A stretch of DNA of 64,000 nt from a virus (taxonomy: Duplodnaviria; Heunggongvirae; Uroviricota; Caudoviricetes), in IMG/VR virus record IMGVR_UViG_3300012344_000014, positions 42,581-106,580 of that record; one strand, given 5' to 3'. This document shows, in pieces, positions 23,902 to 38,071 of the stretch (position 1 is its first letter; each line of letters starts with the position of its first letter). Under the pieces are notes generated by a model that made no database searches, was not told where the DNA came from, and was given only the letters and a program-made list of their open reading frames with translations. A program made the position numbers and the translations under genes.

Positions 23902-24378
23902 TCAAACCTTTCTATGTTGGAATTTATAAGTGATATTGGAGTAGTTCATTGCCATACCGTTTTTGCCGGATGACAGCAGCCACATGGACTGATTGGTGTT
24001 CGGTGAGTCGAGCCCACCGCGCTCTTCAATGTAGGGGCCGATTTTGTAGTAATCAACCCAGCACTGAAGGGAGAGATCGAACACCTGCGAGCCGGAATAG
24101 AGGCAGGTTTTAAGTCCCGCCTTCCGCACCGACATCAGGCATCGCGCCAGCGCGTCTCGGTCATTCCCCTCACCCATAAAGCAGACGCAGGTAATTCGGC
24201 CCGCATACTCCTTGAGTAAAGTTGGAAGATCGTGCTCAAGATCATAGCCGACATCCTGCTGCAGCTCCGGCGAGTGACAGCCGGGGCAGCGATGCGGGCA
24301 GTTTGAAACCTCCACCGCGAGACTGATTTCATCAGGGACTTCCTGCAGGACGACGCTGTAACCGGTGTATTTAATCAT
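23902..24378 (-). CDS. nrdG: anaerobic ribonucleotide reductase activating protein (radical SAM)
   Basis: 'CPHRCPGCHSPE' CxxxCxxC cluster. Start 'MIKYTG' overlaps the stop of the upstream gene (ATGATTAA). Confidence 0.8.
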   Translation of the reverse strand: MIKYTGYSVVLQEVPDEISLAVEVSNCPHRCPGCHSPELQQDVGYDLEHDLPTLLKEYAGRITCVCFMGEGNDRDALARCLMSVRKAGLKTCLYSGSQVFDLSLQCWVDYYKIGPYIEERGGLDSPNTNQSMWLLSSGKNGMAMNYSNITYKFQHRKV

Positions 24379-24556
24379 CGGCCGGTACCTGCACATAGAG
24401 GCCGCAGCAACATTCCTTTGTCGTCCGGAACGCAAGGCACGGACATTTGTTATCATCAGTCTTCTCGACCCGGCAGGGGCAATAGCCGTTGTTAGCGGCT
24501 ATTCTCCCCCTGAGCATCGCGACGAAATCCTTATCAGGATTCAGTTTGATTTTCAT
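24371..24556 (-). CDS. ferredoxin-thioredoxin reductase catalytic-subunit-like (FDR-like) small protein, copy 1
   Basis: 'GYCPCRVEKTDDNKCPCLAFRTTKECCCGLY' CPC...CPC...C.C motif. Paralogue of ORF 30201-30446. Confidence 0.5.
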   Translation of the reverse strand: MKIKLNPDKDFVAMLRGRIAANNGYCPCRVEKTDDNKCPCLAFRTTKECCCGLYVQVPADD

Positions 24557-26855
24557 ATTCCTGTCCACCGAAATACCTCCGGTCATATTCATTCTTGCGC
24601 TCGGCCGACCACTTCGACACGCGGGTCAGATAGCCGATGATGCGCGTGGCATAATCCAGATTTTCACTGCTGCACTTTGGGCACTTCTCCAGCTTGTGCT
24701 TGCTGATATACCCGCAGTCGTTGCAGATGGTATTGGGAACGTTGAAGGTAAAATACGAGCAGCCTTCATGAATCGCGTTGAGAATGAGCAGCTCGTACTG
24801 GCGAGCGGTGAGGTGTTCTTCGAGGTTGATATGGCAGGCGCTGCCGCCGTCGAGATTGCGGATATAACGATCGCCATGCAGCCGAATCTTATCAAGAACC
24901 GTTGTTTTAGGATCTTCAACCACGAAGAAATAGCTGTTATAACACGCTCTCGGGACGGAGAGCCCGTCGGCTTTATCCCATTTGGCGTTCTTCACGCCTA
25001 AGCTTTCGGCTGGCACGTACTCCGTGTTAAACATAACGCCCGGCTCGGCATCGGCCACGTTCCGCCGGTGAATCGTATCAAGGATGAGATCAGTGAACTC
25101 GCCGTAAGCCTTGTTGTCACCGACCGGAATGCCCAGATACTCCGCCGCCTCGACCAGACCGTTGATGCCAACGGTAAGATACTGCTTCTCCGGCGAAACG
25201 AACCCTGCGTCATAAAGCGGGATCATATGCTTGGCCTGCGCATCCTTCACCATCGCGTTATACGCTTTCAAATAGCGATGGACATGCGCGGTCAGATCGT
25301 CAAGCGAGGCTTTGACCTTGGCCAGATCGCCGCCGCAGCCCTGAACGAGCCGGTTGATATTGATGGTCATGACGCGCTTGGAGCCGGTCGCGATGCCGCC
25401 CGCGCCAAGGCTGTAAGTGAACTGGTTTTCAACGATGTTGTTTTTCAGGCGGCAGTTATGCGTAATTACTCCGGAGGGAAGCATGAAGTAGGGCTCGCAC
25501 CCATCATCAACCTCGAGGCAGTAAACATAATCGTATGTATTGGCGCTCTCGATCACCTCAGATACCGGGCGGTATGTATACATCCTGCTTTCGGGATCCC
25601 AACACTGGACTTCATCCCCCTCGACGAGCTCCTTCGCCTGGACGTCTCCGCGCCGGGTGGGGAAAAGATGGTTATCCGTCACCTCATACATATGGCGGGC
25701 GTTCGGCTTGACGTCGATTGTGATAAAATACATCTGACGGCCGGGGAGACGAATGAGAGTCGCGGGAACCACTTCCTCACCGAGCATAACCCGAACACGA
25801 AAATCCTGTTCCTGTTCAAGCATCTGGTAAAGACGCTCTGCAGCCCCGACAAGCAATGTGTTATGCTGGTCCCAGACGGAGAACAGTGTATCCGGCGCAA
25901 AGCAGCACGAACTCAAGCTATCCACGCTATCGCTGGTATAAGTGAAAAAACTGTGCCCTTCGGCATACATCTCGGCGATATGCTTCAGTGCCCGCTGGTC
26001 AACAGCCGTCTTGCCGTTGTTCAGGAGAGAGAACGTTTCGACCGGGAAGGTGATGATCTTGCGGAGCCGCTCCTGATTAAACCACTTCATAAACCGAACC
26101 TGCAGCCACCAGAGGGACTCCCAGAGATCGGTCATTACTGTGCCGTCCGGGAAGGCGAAACCTTCGAACAGCCCGCGGAAATACGGCTCATCAAAATAGG
26201 AAATATTCCAGAAGACGGCCTGATTGCCGCGCGCCGCCGCCGGTTGATTGACCGAGTAGACAACCTGCGCGAAGGTATCGGTGATCACGTTATCAATGGT
26301 GCGCTTGCGGCCGAACAGTTCGGCTTGCGTATCCGGCTTCAGATAATAATCTTCGCCGTATTCCTTGACGAGGAAATAGTTCATATAGGCGAGAAACTCC
26401 GGGGTGGCAATCGCGCCGAGCACCTGAGCGGAAGCGGCGAACACCAGATTGACAAACCCGCCGGCGAAACTTTGCAGCGTCTTGGGAGCGTCCGACGTGC
26501 CGCCCAGCCCCTTCAAGCCGTGCAAAAGAAACGGGTACATAGTGATGCTAGCGCAATAGATCTGCGGGGTCTGGCCGGTTTCATCATGGCAATAGACACG
26601 ATGGGTTTCGAGGTTATCAATGTAGCTGTCGGCCTCTTCCTCGCCGTACATGGCGGTGAGCATATCATGCATCATCAACCGGCTGGTATAGATGCGGCCG
26701 CGCTTACCGCTTTCGGACGCGAGGGTGGCCAGATTCTTTGAACTGACATTGGAGTTTGGATCATAGTCGCTGCTTTCGGCGGCGCATTTTTCATCCATAT
26801 AACGTCTGATGAAATTTGCTTCCGGACGATAGCGCGCATATTTGTCGGGGATCAT
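24534..26855 (-). CDS. nrdD: anaerobic ribonucleoside-triphosphate reductase (class III) containing a mini-intein
   Basis: Glycyl-radical motif 'RIIGYLTRV' and C-terminal Cys4 cluster. A ~150-aa Hint-only insertion is present. Confidence 0.9.
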   Translation of the reverse strand: MIPDKYARYRPEANFIRRYMDEKCAAESSDYDPNSNVSSKNLATLASESGKRGRIYTSRLMMHDMLTAMYGEEEADSYIDNLETHRVYCHDETGQTPQIYCASITMYPFLLHGLKGLGGTSDAPKTLQSFAGGFVNLVFAASAQVLGAIATPEFLAYMNYFLVKEYGEDYYLKPDTQAELFGRKRTIDNVITDTFAQVVYSVNQPAAARGNQAVFWNISYFDEPYFRGLFEGFAFPDGTVMTDLWESLWWLQVRFMKWFNQERLRKIITFPVETFSLLNNGKTAVDQRALKHIAEMYAEGHSFFTYTSDSVDSLSSCCFAPDTLFSVWDQHNTLLVGAAERLYQMLEQEQDFRVRVMLGEEVVPATLIRLPGRQMYFITIDVKPNARHMYEVTDNHLFPTRRGDVQAKELVEGDEVQCWDPESRMYTYRPVSEVIESANTYDYVYCLEVDDGCEPYFMLPSGVITHNCRLKNNIVENQFTYSLGAGGIATGSKRVMTININRLVQGCGGDLAKVKASLDDLTAHVHRYLKAYNAMVKDAQAKHMIPLYDAGFVSPEKQYLTVGINGLVEAAEYLGIPVGDNKAYGEFTDLILDTIHRRNVADAEPGVMFNTEYVPAESLGVKNAKWDKADGLSVPRACYNSYFFVVEDPKTTVLDKIRLHGDRYIRNLDGGSACHINLEEHLTARQYELLILNAIHEGCSYFTFNVPNTICNDCGYISKHKLEKCPKCSSENLDYATRIIGYLTRVSKWSAERKNEYDRRYFGGQEYENQTES
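25455..25904 (-). mobile_element. mini-intein (Hint domain, no endonuclease) inside nrdD
   Basis: N-terminal block 'C-FAPDTLFSV' after extein Cys; C-terminal block 'YVYCLEVDDGCEPYFMLPSGVITHN' followed by +1 Cys. About 150 aa. Confidence 0.7.
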
Positions 26856-32549: not shown

Positions 32550-32600
32550 TCTTTTCATATAATAAAGGGAACATTTTTCACCCCGCTTTTTCAGTTTGAG
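32550..32600 (-). promoter_or_regulatory. conserved promoter-like element, copy 2, upstream of the SPFH operon
   Basis: Minus reading ctgaaaaagcggggtgaAAAATGTTCCCTTTATTATatg. Confidence 0.5.
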
Positions 32601-35600
32601 CGGGCGAAACAGAAATTTTTTTGTAGCCGTCCATCCAAAGCTCAGTCACGCCGGGCTTGACAGAACGTTTGCCATCCTGATACTGATAGGCGGGCTTCTT
32701 CTGCCAGCCAAGGAGCTTGATGACGTCGCCGGCCTTAACGGGATCTTTAGCGAAATCAGGCTTGCGAATTTTCATCACACCGGTGTCTCCGGTGGAGACG
32801 CTATAGAGCTTCAGCTTGGGGCTATATTTCTCATCCACATCAATGACGGCGTAGCAGCCCTTCTTTTCGGGATAGACGCTGAGGGGCGCGCCGAAATAGT
32901 CGCACTCGAAGGGAATGATTTCCTCCATGGGGAGATCTTCATCCGGCAGGGAAGACTCCAGATCGCGCAGGACGGCGAGACGTTTCTGCTGCGTCTTCTC
33001 GACGAGCCCTTTATAGAACCGGTTCTCGCCGGACTTGAACTCCTGAAAGAGCTTGAGCAGTTTGGCGGAGCCGCCGAAATCGCTGAAGTATCCCATCTTG
33101 ATGAGCGCGGTGATGCTGGTGGCGTCGAACGCCGGAGACATATCCATATCGTAAAGCAGATCGGTGAAGTAAAGATACAGCGTATCGCGCATTTTATAGA
33201 GCGCGTCGGCGACTTTTCTACTGACGTGCTTGACGGAGGTGAGCGCGTCGGCGATGGTGTGCGCGCTTTCATCGATAAAGAAATCGCGGTTATCCTGCCC
33301 GAACTTGCAAGCGACGACGCGGATGCCGAACGCCCGACGCATTTCCTCCTTGGCTTTGGCGATGCGGTCTTTATCCTTCTTGGCGGCGTAGGCGCGAAGC
33401 AGGGTGGTGTAATACTGATAAGGATAGTGCGCCTTGAGCCATGCGCCGTAAAGACTATCCAGCGCGACGCAGGTGGCATGCGATGCATTAAAAAGATAGG
33501 AGCAGGAATCGTTGATGATCTGCCAGATTTTATCGGTGGTGGCGAGAGCTTCGGCCTCAGTGACATGCTCCTCCTCCACGATGCGCTGAGAGAACGTGGC
33601 GCGGAACTTTTCCTTGAGAGCGAGCACCTTTTCGGGATGCTTCTTCGAGATGGCCTTGATGGCGGCATAGGATTCAGCCCCAGTGAAACCGCCATGCTGT
33701 AGGACTTTCATGATCTGCTCCTGAAACATGAGGAAGCTGTCGGGAATTTCTTTCGTCTGAAGCAGGTTATCCAGCGAGGGGATACCATAATCGAAATGCC
33801 GGCGGGCGAGGAATGTATCGATCATCGACTTGAAGCCCGGGCGGATGGCGGCGACGAACGCGGCCAGCTCGGTAATATTGCGCGGCTTATAGCGGGCGAC
33901 CTTTTCAGTGGCCTTCTCGCGCTCAACCTGATTGAGCCCCATGGTATAGCCTTTGGCGTACATATCCCAGACTGGATCATCCGGCGGGCACATGGCGAGC
34001 AGTTCGTTAACAGAGGGGAGGGGGATATTGGCGGCCTTGTAGGCGGCGGCGTTGATGTTGACGACGGTGACGGAAAGAAGATCGTTTTTTAGATATCCGT
34101 ATCGATCCGCTGTCGCCCCGTCGATAAAAGCGGCATAAATAGTTCCCTTCTTGCCGGTTTTGCTATTGATACGATAAAGCCCAATTTCCCGGCGGATATC
34201 CTGATCGGTCAGAAGATAGGAACAGGGGCTGGGGGAGATGGAATCGACCATGCCAAGATATTTATTGGACATGCGCAGCTGCTCATGATACTCCTTGGGC
34301 ACGTAATCGAACGGATCGATGGCTTCGCGGTCTTCATCGTCTTCGGCGTATTTTACATCAAGCTCATACTTTTTCAAGCTGTCAGAGATGGCGTTAGCCG
34401 TTTCGAAGGCGACGTTGGTAGAACGGCAATACATCTTCCAGGCGGAAAGCCGTTTGAGCGTGCCAAAGGCGACCATCTGCGCGCTATGCCACTCGCCCAT
34501 GACCTCGGCCTGCGCTTTTTCAAACACCTCAACGTTGCCGCAGTTCAGATCCAAATCCGGCATCTGACCGGTGCTCAGGCGCTCTTTGGAAATAAACCGG
34601 TCGGGGTACATGGTGACGGGCATCTTCAAGCGATCAACGGAGGAGAAGCCGAGAAGCATATTCGTCAGGAAACTGACGCCGCTATTATGGACGACCATAT
34701 GATTAAGTAAGTAGCTGTGTGAATTTTCGATATGCAGATCGTAGACTTTGCACTTCTGCCGAGGTAGAAGATTGATTCCAGTAACTGGAATAAGCCAGTA
34801 CTTGTCGTTTTCAGATATTTTGCGTGACATCCCATAAGGAGTTGAATAAACGGGAATAACCCATTTATATGAGGTTTTGCAGTTATAACCGCGTTTATCA
34901 AACCAACGATCTCGCACTGTAAGCCGCGGCGGCTTCTCTCCAGCTTTCATACAAAGAATATTAAAGGCGTTCATCAAGGAAGGAGATGTATTGTCAAAGC
35001 ATTTACGATCCGATTCAGCAAAACAGCCATCGGTACGCATAAGCCCCGATAAAAAAGCTTTTGATTTCTCGTTATCAAGAAGCAAAATCTCATCGGGGAC
35101 AACTTTATCGTTTCCCTTTTTTGAAATGAAATACGTACAGCCAAGATATTTAGCAAAGGAAGAAGCATGCAGGGTAAGTTGAACCAATTTTTTATTTTTA
35201 GCTTTCGCTTCATAAATAGTTCCGCCAACCCGCGATGCCATAGTCTCAAAGATTTTGCGATTGTAAATATTTTTTTCGTTCTCCGCATTGATGGCAATAC
35301 CACAGACATAACTGCCGTCGTTTCTATGTCGAACCCAGCCGTCTCCATACATCATACCAAGGAATTCGTAATAGAGCGCGTCTTTAACGACCCATCTGCT
35401 CATCAACCGAAAACAAGTATCCTTATATTTTTGCGTAAGCGCTTCTTGAGTATCAACACCATAATAATCGAGTATTTCTCTTTTTGCTTTATTGAGATAT
35501 ACCCCAGGGCCACGACGAACTTCCGCGGAAGTTCGCCCAACAACAAAATTGTATAACGCTGAACGGGAGATGTGGAATTTTTTCATCAGGATTTCCCAGC

Positions 35601-37089
35601 CAAACGCTTCGCGCATCATGTCTTTGCGTAATTCAAAAATATGATCTCCGTCAAATATAGAGGCTCTGCTAATGTATTTGCTGAGATCAACCACTTCGGC
35701 AGTTTGTGAGGCCGGCTGAACAATCTTCGGAATACAAAGCAAATCCCCTTTCTTCAGCCGCGATGCTTCCACCCAGTCATAAGAGCCGTTCAACCGGCAA
35801 ACGAGAACACGATGATCCAACGTACATGTAGGATAAGAGCCAAACATCTTATTCGCCGGAGCCTGAATTTCAACAAGGGGTTCGTCAATATCATAAGAGA
35901 AGGTTTCAATTACTTTTTGATAATCCCCATCCTTATCAATTACAACGTCTCCAGGAGCCACTTGCGAAATTTGTTTCAGCCCGGTCAGTGTTGGCACACG
36001 CGCAGTGTCGGTGAAACAGCCCCTTCCAGATTGGGTTAACACCCCGCCTTCCCGCTTGGCAGTATCGACAACGCGGTTATCAATAAGAAAATAATCCGAA
36101 GTGTTGGTACCGGTAACGGCGTCTGTCTCATACCGGATCGCTTCTTCGTATTCCGGCCAGCGCTCCTGCGGCACTTCAGCTTTATACTGATCCCACGCCT
36201 GATGTACAAGGTCGAGATATTTTTGATTGCGCTCTTCCTGCGTCATGTCGGGATAAGCCGCGGGGAGCTTGCGGCGTTTACCAAACGAGACATCCTCAAA
36301 ATCCAGGAAGACGTTTGTGTTTTCCATCGCTTCATTAATCTGGGCGACGGACAGAACGCCCTGCGCCTTGAACCTGTCGAGCAAATGCTTTTCAGAGGGA
36401 TAATCCATATCCCAACCCTCTTCATCTTCATATTTAAGATGATGGGACTCAAGCAGCTGATCGCGCAGTTTGGAATCCTCCGGGTAAATGAAATGGGAAT
36501 CGGTTGCGGCAATGAGCGGGATATTATACTTGCGATAAAGATCGAGCACGAGCCGGTTGACATCCTTCTGCTTATCGACGTTATGCGCCTGAACCTCGAG
36601 CATGAAGCTGCCGCGGAAATGATCGTTCAAGAGCGTAACGAGCCGTTCGGCCTCCTCCGCGCCGTACTTCCAAATACCGCCGACGCAGGCTGTGGTAACG
36701 AATACATCCTTCGGATCGAGGGCCATGAGCAGATCCAGATCGACGCGGGGGCGATAGTAATAGCCGGTGATATTCGCTTCGGAGAGCGCATAATTCAAAT
36801 CGCCGACGCCTTTGCGCGTCTTCGCTGCCAGAATGAGATGGCAGTTGGATTTGTCTTTTTCGAAGCGGTCCTTGACGAAATAGGCTTCGGTAACATAGCG
36901 CCACTTCAGGCCATACTTTTCAGCTAGCTCGGCGCACTCCCAATAGTTGCCCTGCGTGCCATGGTTACAGGAGGAAAGAACCGTCTGGTTCAGTTCGACG
37001 GCGCGCCTGGCGTAATCCTCCATGGTGGCGACGCTGTCGGCAAGCATGATATTGGAGATGTGATCATGTTTATGATAATTGACGTACAT
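32578..37089 (-). CDS. dnaE: DNA polymerase III alpha subunit (DnaE-type, PHP domain) interrupted by an intein
   Basis: PHP start 'MYVNYHKHDH', palm and fingers motifs. 'GRG|S' extein junction split by a 445-aa insertion. RBS ggaggt then ATG at 37089; the ORF-track N-terminal 135 aa is spurious. Confidence 0.9.
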   Translation of the reverse strand: MYVNYHKHDHISNIMLADSVATMEDYARRAVELNQTVLSSCNHGTQGNYWECAELAEKYGLKWRYVTEAYFVKDRFEKDKSNCHLILAAKTRKGVGDLNYALSEANITGYYYRPRVDLDLLMALDPKDVFVTTACVGGIWKYGAEEAERLVTLLNDHFRGSFMLEVQAHNVDKQKDVNRLVLDLYRKYNIPLIAATDSHFIYPEDSKLRDQLLESHHLKYEDEEGWDMDYPSEKHLLDRFKAQGVLSVAQINEAMENTNVFLDFEDVSFGKRRKLPAAYPDMTQEERNQKYLDLVHQAWDQYKAEVPQERWPEYEEAIRYETDAVTGTNTSDYFLIDNRVVDTAKREGGVLTQSGRGCFTDTARVPTLTGLKQISQVAPGDVVIDKDGDYQKVIETFSYDIDEPLVEIQAPANKMFGSYPTCTLDHRVLVCRLNGSYDWVEASRLKKGDLLCIPKIVQPASQTAEVVDLSKYISRASIFDGDHIFELRKDMMREAFGWEILMKKFHISRSALYNFVVGRTSAEVRRGPGVYLNKAKREILDYYGVDTQEALTQKYKDTCFRLMSRWVVKDALYYEFLGMMYGDGWVRHRNDGSYVCGIAINAENEKNIYNRKIFETMASRVGGTIYEAKAKNKKLVQLTLHASSFAKYLGCTYFISKKGNDKVVPDEILLLDNEKSKAFLSGLMRTDGCFAESDRKCFDNTSPSLMNAFNILCMKAGEKPPRLTVRDRWFDKRGYNCKTSYKWVIPVYSTPYGMSRKISENDKYWLIPVTGINLLPRQKCKVYDLHIENSHSYLLNHMVVHNSGVSFLTNMLLGFSSVDRLKMPVTMYPDRFISKERLSTGQMPDLDLNCGNVEVFEKAQAEVMGEWHSAQMVAFGTLKRLSAWKMYCRSTNVAFETANAISDSLKKYELDVKYAEDDEDREAIDPFDYVPKEYHEQLRMSNKYLGMVDSISPSPCSYLLTDQDIRREIGLYRINSKTGKKGTIYAAFIDGATADRYGYLKNDLLSVTVVNINAAAYKAANIPLPSVNELLAMCPPDDPVWDMYAKGYTMGLNQVEREKATEKVARYKPRNITELAAFVAAIRPGFKSMIDTFLARRHFDYGIPSLDNLLQTKEIPDSFLMFQEQIMKVLQHGGFTGAESYAAIKAISKKHPEKVLALKEKFRATFSQRIVEEEHVTEAEALATTDKIWQIINDSCSYLFNASHATCVALDSLYGAWLKAHYPYQYYTTLLRAYAAKKDKDRIAKAKEEMRRAFGIRVVACKFGQDNRDFFIDESAHTIADALTSVKHVSRKVADALYKMRDTLYLYFTDLLYDMDMSPAFDATSITALIKMGYFSDFGGSAKLLKLFQEFKSGENRFYKGLVEKTQQKRLAVLRDLESSLPDEDLPMEEIIPFECDYFGAPLSVYPEKKGCYAVIDVDEKYSPKLKLYSVSTGDTGVMKIRKPDFAKDPVKAGDVIKLLGWQKKPAYQYQDGKRSVKPGVTELWMDGYKKISVSPAQTEKAG
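34684..36018 (-). mobile_element. full-length intein with LAGLIDADG homing endonuclease in dnaE
   Basis: Begins 'CFTDTARVPTL' after GRG and ends 'LNHMVVHN' before Ser. Two LAGLIDADG motifs ('LGMMYGDGW', 'LSGLMRTDGCF'). Confidence 0.75.
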
Positions 37090-37104
37090 AATACCTCCAC
37101 CCCT

Positions 37105-37133
37105 TGTTATTTCAAATGAGACATGATATACTT
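37105..37133 (+). promoter_or_regulatory. sigma70-like promoter (TTGTTA-17-TATACT) for the + strand island
   Basis: ttgtta at 37105 and tatact at 37128. Confidence 0.5.
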
Positions 37134-37165
37134 TGTTTATAATGCACGAAAGGATTTGAACGACA

Positions 37166-38071
37166 ATGGCAAAACGGTTTGTGGCGATTGCGCTGAGCAT
37201 TATACTTCTGCTTTGCGGCATCGCAAACGCGGAAACGCTGAAGATGCTGGATACGGGAGACGAAGTGCTGGCCCTGAAGAAGGCACTGACGGCGGCGGGA
37301 TATCTGGAAGCGACAGAAGAGACGACGAACGTATTCGACAAGGCGACGAAGAACGCCATCGAGGAGCTGCAGAAGGATTTTGAGCTGGAGGAAACGGGAA
37401 TTGCAACGCCGGAAATACAGGTGATTTGTACGCTGTTGGGGAAACTTACGGAAACGAAATCAACCGCCGGACAAGAGGAAGCAGATGCCGACATGGTAGT
37501 TATGCCGGATGTTTACGGCATAACAGCAGAAGACGCAGCAGAAGCATTGAAAAAGCTTGGCCTCTATGTTATTTTTACGGAAAGATATGACGACTCGCAA
37601 GAAGGAACGGTGTGCTATACCGGTTGTAAACCCGGAGAGAAACTAAAAAAAGGAAGCAAGGTAATTGTGCGCGTTAGCAAGGGGCCTCGCAGGATTGAAT
37701 CCAAAGCCAGCACCATTACCTGGTGGCACGTGAAGGGGTCTAATAGTGATGATTACGAATTTGAAAATCCTTACATTTACGAAGATACGCTCATCATCAA
37801 ACTTGACGTGACACTCAACTCTGAATACAGCCTGCGTTGGCGGGGATATGGCACAGCCTGCATTACGGACAGATTTGATAAGACCGTTCCGATAGAGGTA
37901 AAGTATGAAAACGAGCAAATCAAAAAGGGCGAAACACAAACAATCACTCTGAGAATCCCTCTGAGAGACCTCGACGTTAAGAAGCCGACAACCTTATCTG
38001 TCGAGCTTCAGCTATACCGCGGTAAACAAACCCCGACGCAAATCCGTCTGGATTTCACAATGACATGGTAA
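37166..38071 (+). CDS. secreted protein with peptidoglycan-binding domain and PASTA-like domain
   Basis: Signal peptide MAKRFVAIALSIILLLCGIANA; PG_binding_1-like 'DEVLALKKALTAAGYL...'; PASTA-like 'MPDVYGITAEDAAEALKKLGLYV...VIVRVSKG'. Confidence 0.6.
   Translation: MAKRFVAIALSIILLLCGIANAETLKMLDTGDEVLALKKALTAAGYLEATEETTNVFDKATKNAIEELQKDFELEETGIATPEIQVICTLLGKLTETKSTAGQEEADADMVVMPDVYGITAEDAAEALKKLGLYVIFTERYDDSQEGTVCYTGCKPGEKLKKGSKVIVRVSKGPRRIESKASTITWWHVKGSNSDDYEFENPYIYEDTLIIKLDVTLNSEYSLRWRGYGTACITDRFDKTVPIEVKYENEQIKKGETQTITLRIPLRDLDVKKPTTLSVELQLYRGKQTPTQIRLDFTMTW

What the first reader, a model, noticed from the sequence alone, without database searches (positions are those of the whole stretch)
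25455..25904. Mini-intein (Hint-only, ~150 aa) inside the class III RNR gene nrdD
Splicing blocks A ('CFAPDTLFSV') and F/G ('YVYCLEVDDGCEPYFMLPSGVITHN' then Cys) bracket a compact insertion with no endonuclease domain. Removing it gives a contiguous '...SSC|CRLKNN...' extein.
Basis: partly seen in the sequence, partly recalled or inferred. Interest (0 to 1): 0.55.

Follow-up and report, generated by a model that had tools for sequence, protein, structure and literature searches.

The report
Mini-intein splitting a phage NrdD
A 150-residue self-splicing protein element with no homing endonuclease sits in the catalytic Cys-Cys motif of a phage anaerobic ribonucleotide reductase; it is a real but fairly ordinary small member of an intein family already seen in Clostridium phage c-st.

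Summary
Window 25455..25904 (minus strand) encodes 150 aa, CFAPD...ITHN, followed by Cys, inside a 773-aa nrdD ORF (24534..26855, -).

- **Insertion:** a homologue with 97% identical exteins (P0003, 623 aa) lacks precisely these 150 aa (450 nt) and reads SSCCRL.
- **Site:** the insertion falls between the two essential cysteines of the NrdD SCCR motif. The +1 Cys aligns with the T4 MGCR cysteine.
- **Family:** of the window protein plus its 120 best homologues, 63 carry an intein at this same site (140-351 aa) and 58 carry none. The ~345-aa versions have a LAGLIDADG domain, which the window copy lacks.
- **Fold:** Pfam and NCBIfam miss it. A family profile hits solved inteins (E 3e-7), and an AlphaFold model (pLDDT 95.6) matches only intein/Hedgehog-type (HINT) folds.
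- **Selection:** Cys1, TxxH, His-Asn and Cys+1 are intact, and dN/dS is 0.06, so it very probably splices by the standard class 1 route.
- **Prior knowledge:** Clostridium phage c-st NrdD carries a full-size relative at the same site, so this is a new member of a known kind.
- **Unusual point:** the whole family has Cys instead of Asp at block F position 4, plus Thr-His-Asn. These are class-3-like traits alongside an invariant Cys1. Their function is untested.

The parts
24534..26855 (-). nrdD precursor ORF, 773 aa (88.0 kDa), including the stop codon. Contains the glycyl-radical motif RIIGY (aa 738-742) and the Zn-ribbon cysteines CNDC and CPKC (aa 711-714 and 725-728).
25905..26855 (-). N-extein, aa 1-317, ending ...SVDSLSSC. 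The -1 residue is the first Cys of the SCCR motif (Cys329 in T. maritima NrdD).
   Evidence: PMC4493059
25455..25904 (-). Mini-intein, 150 aa (17.5 kDa), aa 318-467 of the precursor. Splicing (HINT) domain only, no homing endonuclease.
25902..25904 (-). Block A Cys1, the N-terminal nucleophile. Invariant in 56 of 56 non-redundant inteins at this site.
25668..25679 (-). Block B T76-D-N-H79 (the TxxH motif). Thr and His are invariant in the family. Phe81 follows at position B:12.
25518..25520 (-). Block F position 4: Cys129 in place of the usual Asp. Invariant in the family. In profile alignments it sits opposite the Asp of 'VYDL' in class 1 inteins.
25455..25463 (-). Block G T148-H149-N150: penultimate His and terminal Asn (the residue that cyclises to succinimide).
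24534..25454 (-). C-extein, aa 468-773 plus stop, beginning CRLKNNIV. Its first codon (25452..25454) is the +1 Cys, the second Cys of SCCR (Cys330 of T. maritima NrdD, aligned with the T4 MGCR cysteine).
   Evidence: PMC4493059

Best explanation
The segment is a genuine mini-intein, very probably splicing-competent and of class 1 type, carried in the nrdD gene of a temperate phage.

The gene is translated as an 88-kDa precursor. In it, a 17.5-kDa intein domain separates the two adjacent essential cysteines of the NrdD SCCR motif, so the precursor should be catalytically dead.

Inferred mechanism, which is the standard four-step pathway:
1. Cys1 (precursor Cys318) undergoes an N-to-S acyl shift, helped by block B Thr76 and His79.
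2. The +1 Cys (Cys468, later NrdD's own catalytic cysteine) attacks the thioester to form the branched intermediate.
3. Asn150 cyclises, helped by His149, and releases the intein.
4. An S-to-N shift joins Cys317 to Cys468, giving a 70.5-kDa NrdD with the native SSCCRL sequence.

The intein has no endonuclease and cannot home by itself. It descends from the LAGLIDADG-bearing inteins that occupy the same site in related phages. It is now kept by vertical descent, by selection for splicing, and by occasional allelic recombination.

Shown here: the insertion, its boundaries, its fold, its motifs, its homology, purifying selection, and the presence/absence polymorphism. Inferred: splicing itself and its chemical route.
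For: - **Exact in-frame indel:** 150 aa / 450 nt relative to homologues with 97% (P0003), 89% (P0006) and 70% (P0007) identical exteins.
- **Site-specific family:** 63 of 121 close NrdDs carry an intein at the same SC|CRL junction and 58 do not. Fifty of the 56 proteins found by exhaustive search with the intein alone carry the family's block F-G motif followed by CRL/CRF, the same junction.
- **Homology to recognised inteins:** the full-size relatives score on Pfam Intein_splicing and LAGLIDADG_3. The window copy aligns to their two ends.
- **Profile and fold:** the family profile matches solved inteins (TFIIB 3e-7, CDC21 9e-6, DnaX 7e-5, PolB16, Ssp DnaB, NrdJ-1, gp41-1). The AlphaFold model has pLDDT 95.6 and pTM 0.88. 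Its 50 best PDB matches are all inteins or other HINT domains, with TM about 0.7.
- **Catalytic residues:** Cys1, Thr76, His79, His149, Asn150 and Cys+1 are present, and all are invariant or nearly so in the family.
- **Selection:** against the 92%-identical copy in L002, intein dN/dS is 0.062 and extein dN/dS is 0.019. dS is the same in both (0.686 and 0.685), so the intein has co-evolved with a selected host gene.
- **Composition:** GC content matches the flanks.
- **Essential site:** both cysteines of the SCCR motif are required for T. maritima NrdD activity (PMC4493059).
Against: - No experiment shows splicing for this intein. I know of none for any member of its family, and I did not search the literature for one.
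- Pfam and NCBIfam do not detect the window copy (best PF14890 E 0.056, against a cutoff of 35.8 bits).
- Block F departs from the class 1 consensus: Cys instead of Asp at F:4, and Pro instead of His at F:13. The exact chemistry could therefore differ.
- dN/dS comes from a single sequence pair.
Confidence: 0.88

Rival explanations
1. Class 3-like or hybrid splicing. [quoted passage not shown] This forms a block F branched intermediate, which is then passed to the +1 Cys, as in class 3 inteins.
For: - Cys at F:4 is invariant in 56 of 56 family members and in all 50 wider relatives at the NrdD site. Other inteins in those same proteins have D, E or N there.
- Thr at G:5 (the THN ending) occurs in 41 of 56 members. 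Trp at B:12 occurs in 9 of 56, giving those members a complete Trp-Cys-Thr (WCT) triplet.
- The literature states that F:4 is usually Asp in standard inteins and Cys in WCT inteins (PMC2807308).
Against: - Cys1 is invariant (56 of 56, and 40 of 40 where the junction could be read), which points to a working class 1 nucleophile.
- B:12 is Phe in the window copy, not Trp.
- The +1 residue is Cys, not the Ser/Thr typical of class 3.
- Block B keeps the class 1 Thr at B:7.
- Profile and fold matches to class 3 inteins are much weaker than to class 1 inteins: MchDnaB1 E 0.075 and MsmDnaB1 E 0.18 against 3e-7 for TFIIB; Foldseek 3.6e-5 against 3.7e-8.
- Grafting the WCT triplet onto gp41-1 did not produce a class 3 intein (PMC7664689).
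Confidence: 0.08
2. Redox-gated (conditional) splicing. The cluster of cysteines at the active centre (Cys-1, Cys1, Cys129 at F:4, Cys+1) forms a disulfide under oxidising conditions and blocks splicing. The oxygen-sensitive NrdD would then mature only when the cell is reducing or anoxic. This would be an added layer on the class 1 route, not a replacement for it.
For: - Four cysteines converge on the splice centre, and the F:4 Cys is invariant.
- The host enzyme is a glycyl-radical, strictly anaerobic reductase.
- There is a precedent: the F:4 Cys118 of the M. smegmatis DnaB intein forms a reversible disulfide that blocks splicing under H2O2 (PMC6195587).
Against: This is purely inferential. 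Cys-1 and Cys+1 are required by NrdD itself, so their presence needs no intein-related explanation. Conservation of the F:4 Cys could simply reflect adaptation to the Cys/Cys extein context.
Confidence: 0.15
3. A decayed, non-splicing intein remnant that leaves nrdD a pseudogene.
For: The endonuclease has been lost. Pfam fails to detect the domain. Block F lacks the usual Asp and His.
Against: - The ORF is intact and every core catalytic residue is retained.
- There is strong purifying selection on both the intein (dN/dS 0.062) and the exteins (0.019).
- The unusual block F residues are family-wide, including in endonuclease-bearing members, and are not private lesions.
- nrdG and the rest of the nucleotide-metabolism module are intact.
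Confidence: 0.04
4. The segment is a native, lineage-specific insertion or domain of NrdD that stays in the mature enzyme.
For: None beyond the continuous reading frame.
Against: It is absent from homologues with 97% identical exteins. It has the intein/Hedgehog (HINT) fold and intein termini. It separates two adjacent essential cysteines.
Confidence: 0.01

Closest known systems
Clostridium phage c-st / D-1873 NrdD intein (CST076; listed in InBase as the Cbp-C-St RNR intein, from memory)
   Same: Same host protein and the identical insertion point (ASC|CRL). Same family signature: C1, TxxH, 'VYCFE...PYFTLPNGIITHN', Cys+1. The same gene neighbour, a small ferredoxin-thioredoxin-reductase-like ORF, follows nrdD.
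   Different: The c-st intein is 330 aa and has a LAGLIDADG endonuclease domain; the window copy is 150 aa without one. Similarity is confined to the splicing blocks: 62% over the last 26 residues and 32% over 56 residues of the N-terminal part. The host NrdDs are only distantly related.
Full-size LAGLIDADG inteins at the same site in the window phage's closest relatives (P0002, P0004, P0005; locus L004)
   Same: Syntenic phage genomes with exteins 88-94% identical. Same junction. Shared motifs LPxRQMY, TDNHLFPTxRGD, YDxVYCxE and EPYFxLPxGxITHN.
   Different: These are 310-344 aa with an endonuclease. The splicing domains are only ~32-37% identical to the window's, so they are a different intein allele rather than its direct parent.
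gp41-1 and other natural class 1 mini- or split inteins (Mtu RecA splicing domain, Ssp/Npu DnaB, NrdJ-1, Pho RadA)
   Same: Same HINT fold (TM 0.6-0.77). Cys1, HN and a +1 nucleophile. gp41-1 also has Phe at B:12 and a THN ending (PMC7664689; PMC12245125).
   Different: These have Asp at F:4 where the window intein has Cys. Sequence identity is only 12-20%.
Class 3 inteins (MP-Be DnaB, Msm/Mch DnaB-1)
   Same: Cys at F:4 and Thr at G:5. Phage association. HINT fold.
   Different: Class 3 inteins lack an N-terminal nucleophile, have Trp at B:12, usually have Ser/Thr at +1, and sit mostly in helicase P-loops. The window intein has Cys1, Phe81 and Cys+1, and sits in NrdD.

Membership tests
Intein (protein-splicing element) | In-frame insertion in a conserved host protein, absent from close homologues, whose removal restores the conserved host sequence | tested here: met
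   A 150-aa / 450-nt indel against homologues with 97%, 89% and 70% identical exteins. Removal gives SSCCRL.
Intein (protein-splicing element) | Intein/Hedgehog-type (HINT) fold | tested here: met
   AlphaFold2 model with pLDDT 95.6. The top 50 Foldseek PDB hits are all inteins or other HINT domains, best E 3.7e-8. This is a predicted structure, not a solved one.
Intein (protein-splicing element) | Sequence homology to recognised inteins | tested here: met
   The family profile matches PDB inteins at E 3e-7 to 6e-4. The window copy matches relatives that pass Pfam PF14890 and PF14528 by BLASTP at 1e-8 to 1e-13.
Intein (protein-splicing element) | Direct match of the window segment itself to Pfam Intein_splicing (PF14890) at the gathering threshold | tested here: not met
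   E 0.056, 13.7 bits against a cutoff of 35.8. This is a sensitivity failure of the model for this divergent subfamily, not evidence against the fold.
Intein (protein-splicing element) | Autocatalytic excision with ligation of the exteins | not testable with these tools
   Needs expression plus SDS-PAGE and mass spectrometry. The indirect support is purifying selection.
Class 1 intein | Cys/Ser/Thr at position 1; block B Thr(7)xxHis(10); His-Asn at the C-terminus; Cys/Ser/Thr at +1 | tested here: met
   C1, T76, H79, H149, N150 and C+1 are present, and are invariant or nearly so in 56 family members.
Class 1 intein | Asp at block F position 4 (usual, not obligatory) | tested here: not met
   Cys129 aligns with the Asp of VYDL in the TFIIB, CDC21, DnaX and PolB16 inteins.
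Mini-intein | No homing-endonuclease or linker domain between blocks B and F | tested here: met
   150 aa in total. The ~200-aa LAGLIDADG segment of its relatives is absent. The model is a single domain.
Class 3 intein | No N-terminal Cys/Ser/Thr nucleophile | tested here: not met
   Cys1 is present and invariant.
Class 3 intein | WCT triplet: Trp at B:12, Cys at F:4, Thr at G:5 | tested here: inconclusive
   The window copy has Phe-Cys-Thr. Nine of 56 family members have the full Trp-Cys-Thr triplet.
Class 3 intein | Obligate block F Cys nucleophile (block F branched intermediate) | not testable with these tools
   Needs C1A and C129A mutants and detection of the intermediate.
Anaerobic (class III) ribonucleotide reductase NrdD (host) | NRDD domain, C-terminal glycyl-radical motif, Zn-ribbon cysteines, finger-loop Cys motif, adjacent activase | tested here: met
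   PF13597 E 6e-85 and TIGR02827 738 bits, above the cutoff of 568. RIIGY, CNDC/CPKC and SCCR (after splicing) are present. nrdG-like TIGR02826 E 7e-40, though below its equivalog cutoff.

The most novel reading that the evidence does not exclude
[quoted passage not shown] The family keeps an invariant Cys1 together with the class 3 hallmarks Cys at F:4 and Thr at G:5, and some members also have Trp at B:12. If so, the block F cysteine would be functional. It could act as a second nucleophile, which would be the kind of phage-borne intermediate from which class 3 inteins arose. Or it could act as a redox switch that lets the oxygen-sensitive NrdD mature only under reducing, anoxic conditions.
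Probability: 0.15. Interest if true: 0.6.

Novelty: new member of a known kind. Interest (0 to 1): 0.3.

Why it matters
As it stands, this is a correct and clean annotation with four practical uses.

- **Annotation gap:** this nrdD encodes a 623-aa enzyme after splicing, and standard domain libraries miss the 150-aa intein. Automatic pipelines would probably call the gene an oddly long NrdD.
- **Intein life cycle:** near-identical phages carry an empty site, this mini-intein, or a full-size endonuclease-bearing intein. A recombination tract surrounds the site. Together these show the gain, decay and loss of an intein within one phage lineage.
- **Protein engineering:** a compact 150-aa Cys1/Cys+1 intein with a THN terminus, working in a Cys-Cys junction, is a candidate tool.
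- **Evolution of splicing mechanisms:** the family-wide Cys at block F position 4 alongside an intact Cys1 is relevant to how class 3 inteins evolved and to redox control of splicing in an anaerobic enzyme. This is untested.

Tried and rejected
- **Direct domain scans:** Pfam and NCBIfam scans of the 150-aa segment found nothing significant. A single-sequence search of PDB gave only sub-threshold intein hits. Both were superseded by the family profile and the fold search.
- **DNA search:** blastn of nrdD against GenBank phages gave only a 90-nt match to Vibrio phage nrdD, so no close deposited relative exists.
- **tblastn with the mini-intein alone:** one weak hit in 50,697 phage records. Querying with a full-size relative was needed to reach c-st, D-1873, Desulfovibrio phage 7757 and the Lak phages.
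- **One-residue shift of the N-terminal junction** (Cys317 rather than Cys318 as intein residue 1): rejected, because it would give SSCRL rather than the conserved SSCCRL.
- **RNA-level removal (intron):** rejected, because the frame is continuous, the segment folds as a HINT domain and it is under protein-level selection.
- **Bacterial intein-like (BIL) domain:** rejected, because the segment has a +1 nucleophile and sits in a conserved catalytic motif.
- **Class 3 membership:** rejected, because Cys1 is present.
- **Could not be done:** Tori & Perler 2011 (PMC3133030) is not held. The model coordinates could not be read, so Cys-Cys distances were not measured.
- **Antisense ORF:** the 557-aa ORF on the plus strand (25068..26741) is treated as a shadow of nrdD. 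I did not test it separately.
Full report
**1. The observation**

The minus strand of window 25455..25904 translates to exactly 150 residues. It begins CFAPDTLFSV and ends YVYCLEVDDGCEPYFMLPSGVITHN.

The segment lies in frame within one open reading frame, 24534..26855 (-), of 773 aa. The frame reads ...SVDSLSSC|CFAPD...ITHN|CRLKNNIV....

**2. The host protein**

The ORF is an anaerobic (class III) ribonucleotide reductase.
- Pfam NRDD scores E 6e-85.
- NCBIfam TIGR02827 scores 738 bits, above its cutoff of 568.
- The Thermotoga maritima NrdD structure 4COI scores E 3.5e-69.

Every one of these matches comes in two stretches that skip residues ~320-460. The alignment to T. maritima NrdD stops at ...SLSSCC, opposite ...AVASCC.

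The glycyl-radical motif (RIIGY) and the zinc-ribbon cysteines are present. An nrdG-type activase follows (23902..24456, TIGR02826 E 7e-40).

**3. It is an insertion, and its boundaries are exact**

A search of 5.8 billion proteins returned the 120 best homologues.

P0003 (623 aa = 773 - 150) has exteins 97% identical to the window's and reads SDSVDSLSSCCRLKNNIV with nothing in between. P0006 (89% extein identity) and P0007 (70%) do the same.

At the DNA level, the intein-free contig L001 lacks exactly 450 nt.

Starting the intein at Cys318 rather than Cys317 is the only choice that regenerates the conserved SSCCRL.

In T. maritima NrdD this SCCR motif corresponds to T4 MGCR. Mutating either cysteine (C329A or C330A) abolishes activity (PMC4493059). 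The intein therefore separates two adjacent essential cysteines, and its +1 nucleophile is the enzyme's own catalytic cysteine. From general knowledge, T4 Cys290 is the thiyl-radical site.

**4. It is an intein**

Direct Pfam and NCBIfam scans fail; the best is PF14890 at E 0.056. A single-sequence PDB search gives only sub-threshold hits, though all four are inteins. Three stronger lines of evidence settle the question.

- **(a) The site is an intein hot spot.** Of the window protein plus its 120 homologues, 63 carry an insertion at precisely this junction and 58 carry none. Sizes are 140-208 aa (19 distinct sequences) and 310-351 aa. The long ones carry precomputed Pfam hits to Intein_splicing and LAGLIDADG_3. 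The window segment aligns by BLASTP to residues 1-~95 and to the last ~40 residues of these long inteins (E 1e-8 to 1e-13). It skips their ~200-aa middle, which contains LIGMYLGDGS and TDGGNSNR.
- **(b) Profile matches.** A profile of 21 family members hits solved inteins: TFIIB mini-inteins at 3e-7, PhoCDC21-1 at 9e-6, DnaX at 7e-5, and PolB16, Ssp DnaB, Pab PolII, NrdJ-1 and gp41-1 down to 6e-4.
- **(c) Predicted fold.** An AlphaFold2 model built on that alignment is very confident (pLDDT 95.6, pTM 0.88). It is all-beta with one short helix. Its 50 best Foldseek matches in the PDB are all inteins or other intein/Hedgehog-type (HINT) domains: Pho RadA, Mtu RecA, Ssp/Npu DnaB, NrdJ-1, gp41-1, VidaL, Hedgehog and BIL domains. 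The best E is 3.7e-8 and TM is about 0.7.

**5. Motifs and likely activity**

Family-invariant positions are Cys1, Thr76 and His79 (block B TxxH), Asp97, Cys129, Phe140, Gly145 and Asn150. His149 is nearly invariant. The +1 residue is always Cys.

I compared the window copy with the 92%-identical copy in a related phage contig (L002).

| Region | dN/dS | dS |
|---|---|---|
| Intein | 0.062 | 0.686 |
| Exteins | 0.019 | 0.685 |

The equal dS means the intein has been resident since the two phages diverged. The low dN/dS means it is under strong protein-level constraint. This is expected if NrdD function depends on its splicing.

GC content is indistinguishable from the flanks.

I therefore infer a splicing-competent intein using the standard class 1 route: Cys1 acyl shift, attack by Cys+1, Asn150 cyclisation, then S-to-N shift. 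This would convert an 88.0-kDa precursor into a 70.5-kDa NrdD and a 17.5-kDa intein. Splicing itself is not shown.

**6. An unusual active-site feature**

In the profile alignments, Cys129 lies opposite the Asp of the class 1 block F motif: 'VYDL', 'AYDL' and 'VYDI' against the family's 'VYCF'. This is position F:4.

- The literature says F:4 is usually Asp in standard inteins and Cys in class 3 (Trp-Cys-Thr, "WCT") inteins (PMC2807308).
- The family also has Thr at G:5 (the THN ending) in 41 of 56 members.
- At B:12 it has Phe in 31 members, Asn in 11 and Trp in 9. A minority therefore carry a complete WCT triplet together with Cys1 and Cys+1.
- In the wider set of relatives, every intein at the NrdD site has 'YC'. 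Other inteins in the same proteins have D, E or N at that position. The second intein in this window has Asp.

Cys1 is nevertheless invariant, block B keeps Thr at B:7, and the family is much closer in profile and fold to class 1 than to class 3 inteins. I therefore do not file it under class 3.

The role of the block F cysteine is open. It could be plain adaptation to the Cys/Cys junction, a back-up nucleophile, or a redox switch. The F:4 cysteine of the M. smegmatis DnaB intein forms a splicing-blocking disulfide (PMC6195587).

**7. Evolutionary context**

The neighbourhood is a phage nucleotide-metabolism and replication module. It includes Pol III alpha, ligase, primase-helicase, a metallophosphatase, a RuvC-like gene, nrdD, a small ferredoxin-thioredoxin-reductase-like ORF, nrdG, SHMT and a serine recombinase. 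Related contigs additionally show ThyX, dUTPase, PhoH and ClpP.

Syntenic contigs carry all three states of the site.

| State of the site | Contigs / proteins | Extein identity to the window |
|---|---|---|
| Empty | L001, L005, L006 | 89-97% |
| Mini-intein | window, L002 | 97.6% (L002) |
| 344-aa LAGLIDADG intein | L004 / P0002 | 94% (intein only ~34%) |

The mini-intein allele L002 and the empty allele L001 are 97.1% identical in extein DNA outside a central 660-nt block around the insertion site. Inside that block they are 87.1% identical. This mosaic is what allelic exchange of the intein together with flanking extein sequence would leave behind.

Most mini-inteins in the family have full-size inteins as nearest neighbours. 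For example, P0047 and P0059 pair with P0102 at 63%, and P0089 pairs with P0044 at 70%. This indicates repeated independent endonuclease loss.

The window's lineage is deep. Apart from its own 92-94% cluster, nothing exceeds ~46% identity in the splicing core. An exhaustive HMMER search of 1.84 billion representative proteins gave a best E of only 8e-13 at 37% identity.

**8. What is already known**

Inteins in phage nrdD have been reported: Clostridium phage c-st, D-1873 and Lactococcus phage 949 (PMC3653736), and gut jumbo phages (PMC12880540).

I fetched c-st CST076. It has a 330-aa intein at the identical junction (...ALASC|CFDGQQ...VYCFEMKNIEEPYFTLPNGIITHN|CRL...) with the same family signature. 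It is followed by the same small ferredoxin-thioredoxin-reductase-like ORF.

The window element is thus a new, endonuclease-less and strongly diverged member of a known, site-specific intein family.

**9. Verdict**

The element is real, well delimited and probably functional, but it is not a new kind of thing.

The residual interest lies in three points: the family-wide block F cysteine, the three-state polymorphism, and the failure of standard domain models to detect the intein.

Noticed in passing
window 34684..36018 (-), inside ORF 32578..37494 (-): There is a second intein in the window. The DNA polymerase III alpha ORF is 1638 aa and contains a 445-aa insertion (aa 493-937): ...QSGRG|CFTDTARV...HMVVHN|SGVSF.... 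It has LAGLIDADG-like motifs, a Pfam Intein_splicing hit (E 1e-9) and a canonical block F 'VYDLHIENSHSYLL'. The insertion is absent from the Pol III alpha of the related contig L002.
   Followed up: partly
window 24371..24592 (-): A 73-aa ORF overlaps the 3' end of nrdD and resembles the catalytic beta chain of ferredoxin-thioredoxin reductase (Pfam PF02943, E 5e-5). The same small gene follows nrdD in L005, L006 and Clostridium phage c-st (CST077). This suggests a dedicated reductant partner for this thioredoxin-type NrdD.
   Followed up: partly
window 23902..24456 (-): An nrdG-type activase (CPHRCPGC motif; TIGR02826 E 7e-40, below the equivalog cutoff). Pfam found nothing at E 0.01. The called start may be too far upstream, since relatives encode 156-158 aa.
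   Followed up: partly
L002:10001-12322 vs L001:854-2725 (relatives of window 24534..26855): Extein DNA of the mini-intein allele and the empty allele is 97.1% identical outside a central 660-nt block around the insertion site and 87.1% identical inside it. This is a mosaic suggesting recombinational exchange of the intein region.
   Followed up: yes
proteins P0122, P0151, P0155, P0158, P0159, P0162, P0171, P0174 (relatives): Some distant NrdD homologues (887-1815 aa) show one or two further intein-like block F-G motifs at other positions, with 'YD', 'YE' or 'YN' at block F position 4, in addition to the SC|CRL-site intein. NrdD appears to be a multi-site intein host.
   Followed up: no
window 15920..17605 (-) and 10510..12747 (+): A large serine recombinase (Resolvase, Recombinase, Zn_ribbon_recom and DUF4368 domains) and a collagen-repeat protein. 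Both are consistent with a temperate phage or prophage origin of the window.
   Followed up: no
window 25068..26741 (+): A 557-aa ORF lies antisense to nrdD. I treated it as a shadow ORF of a GC-rich gene and did not test it separately.
   Followed up: no
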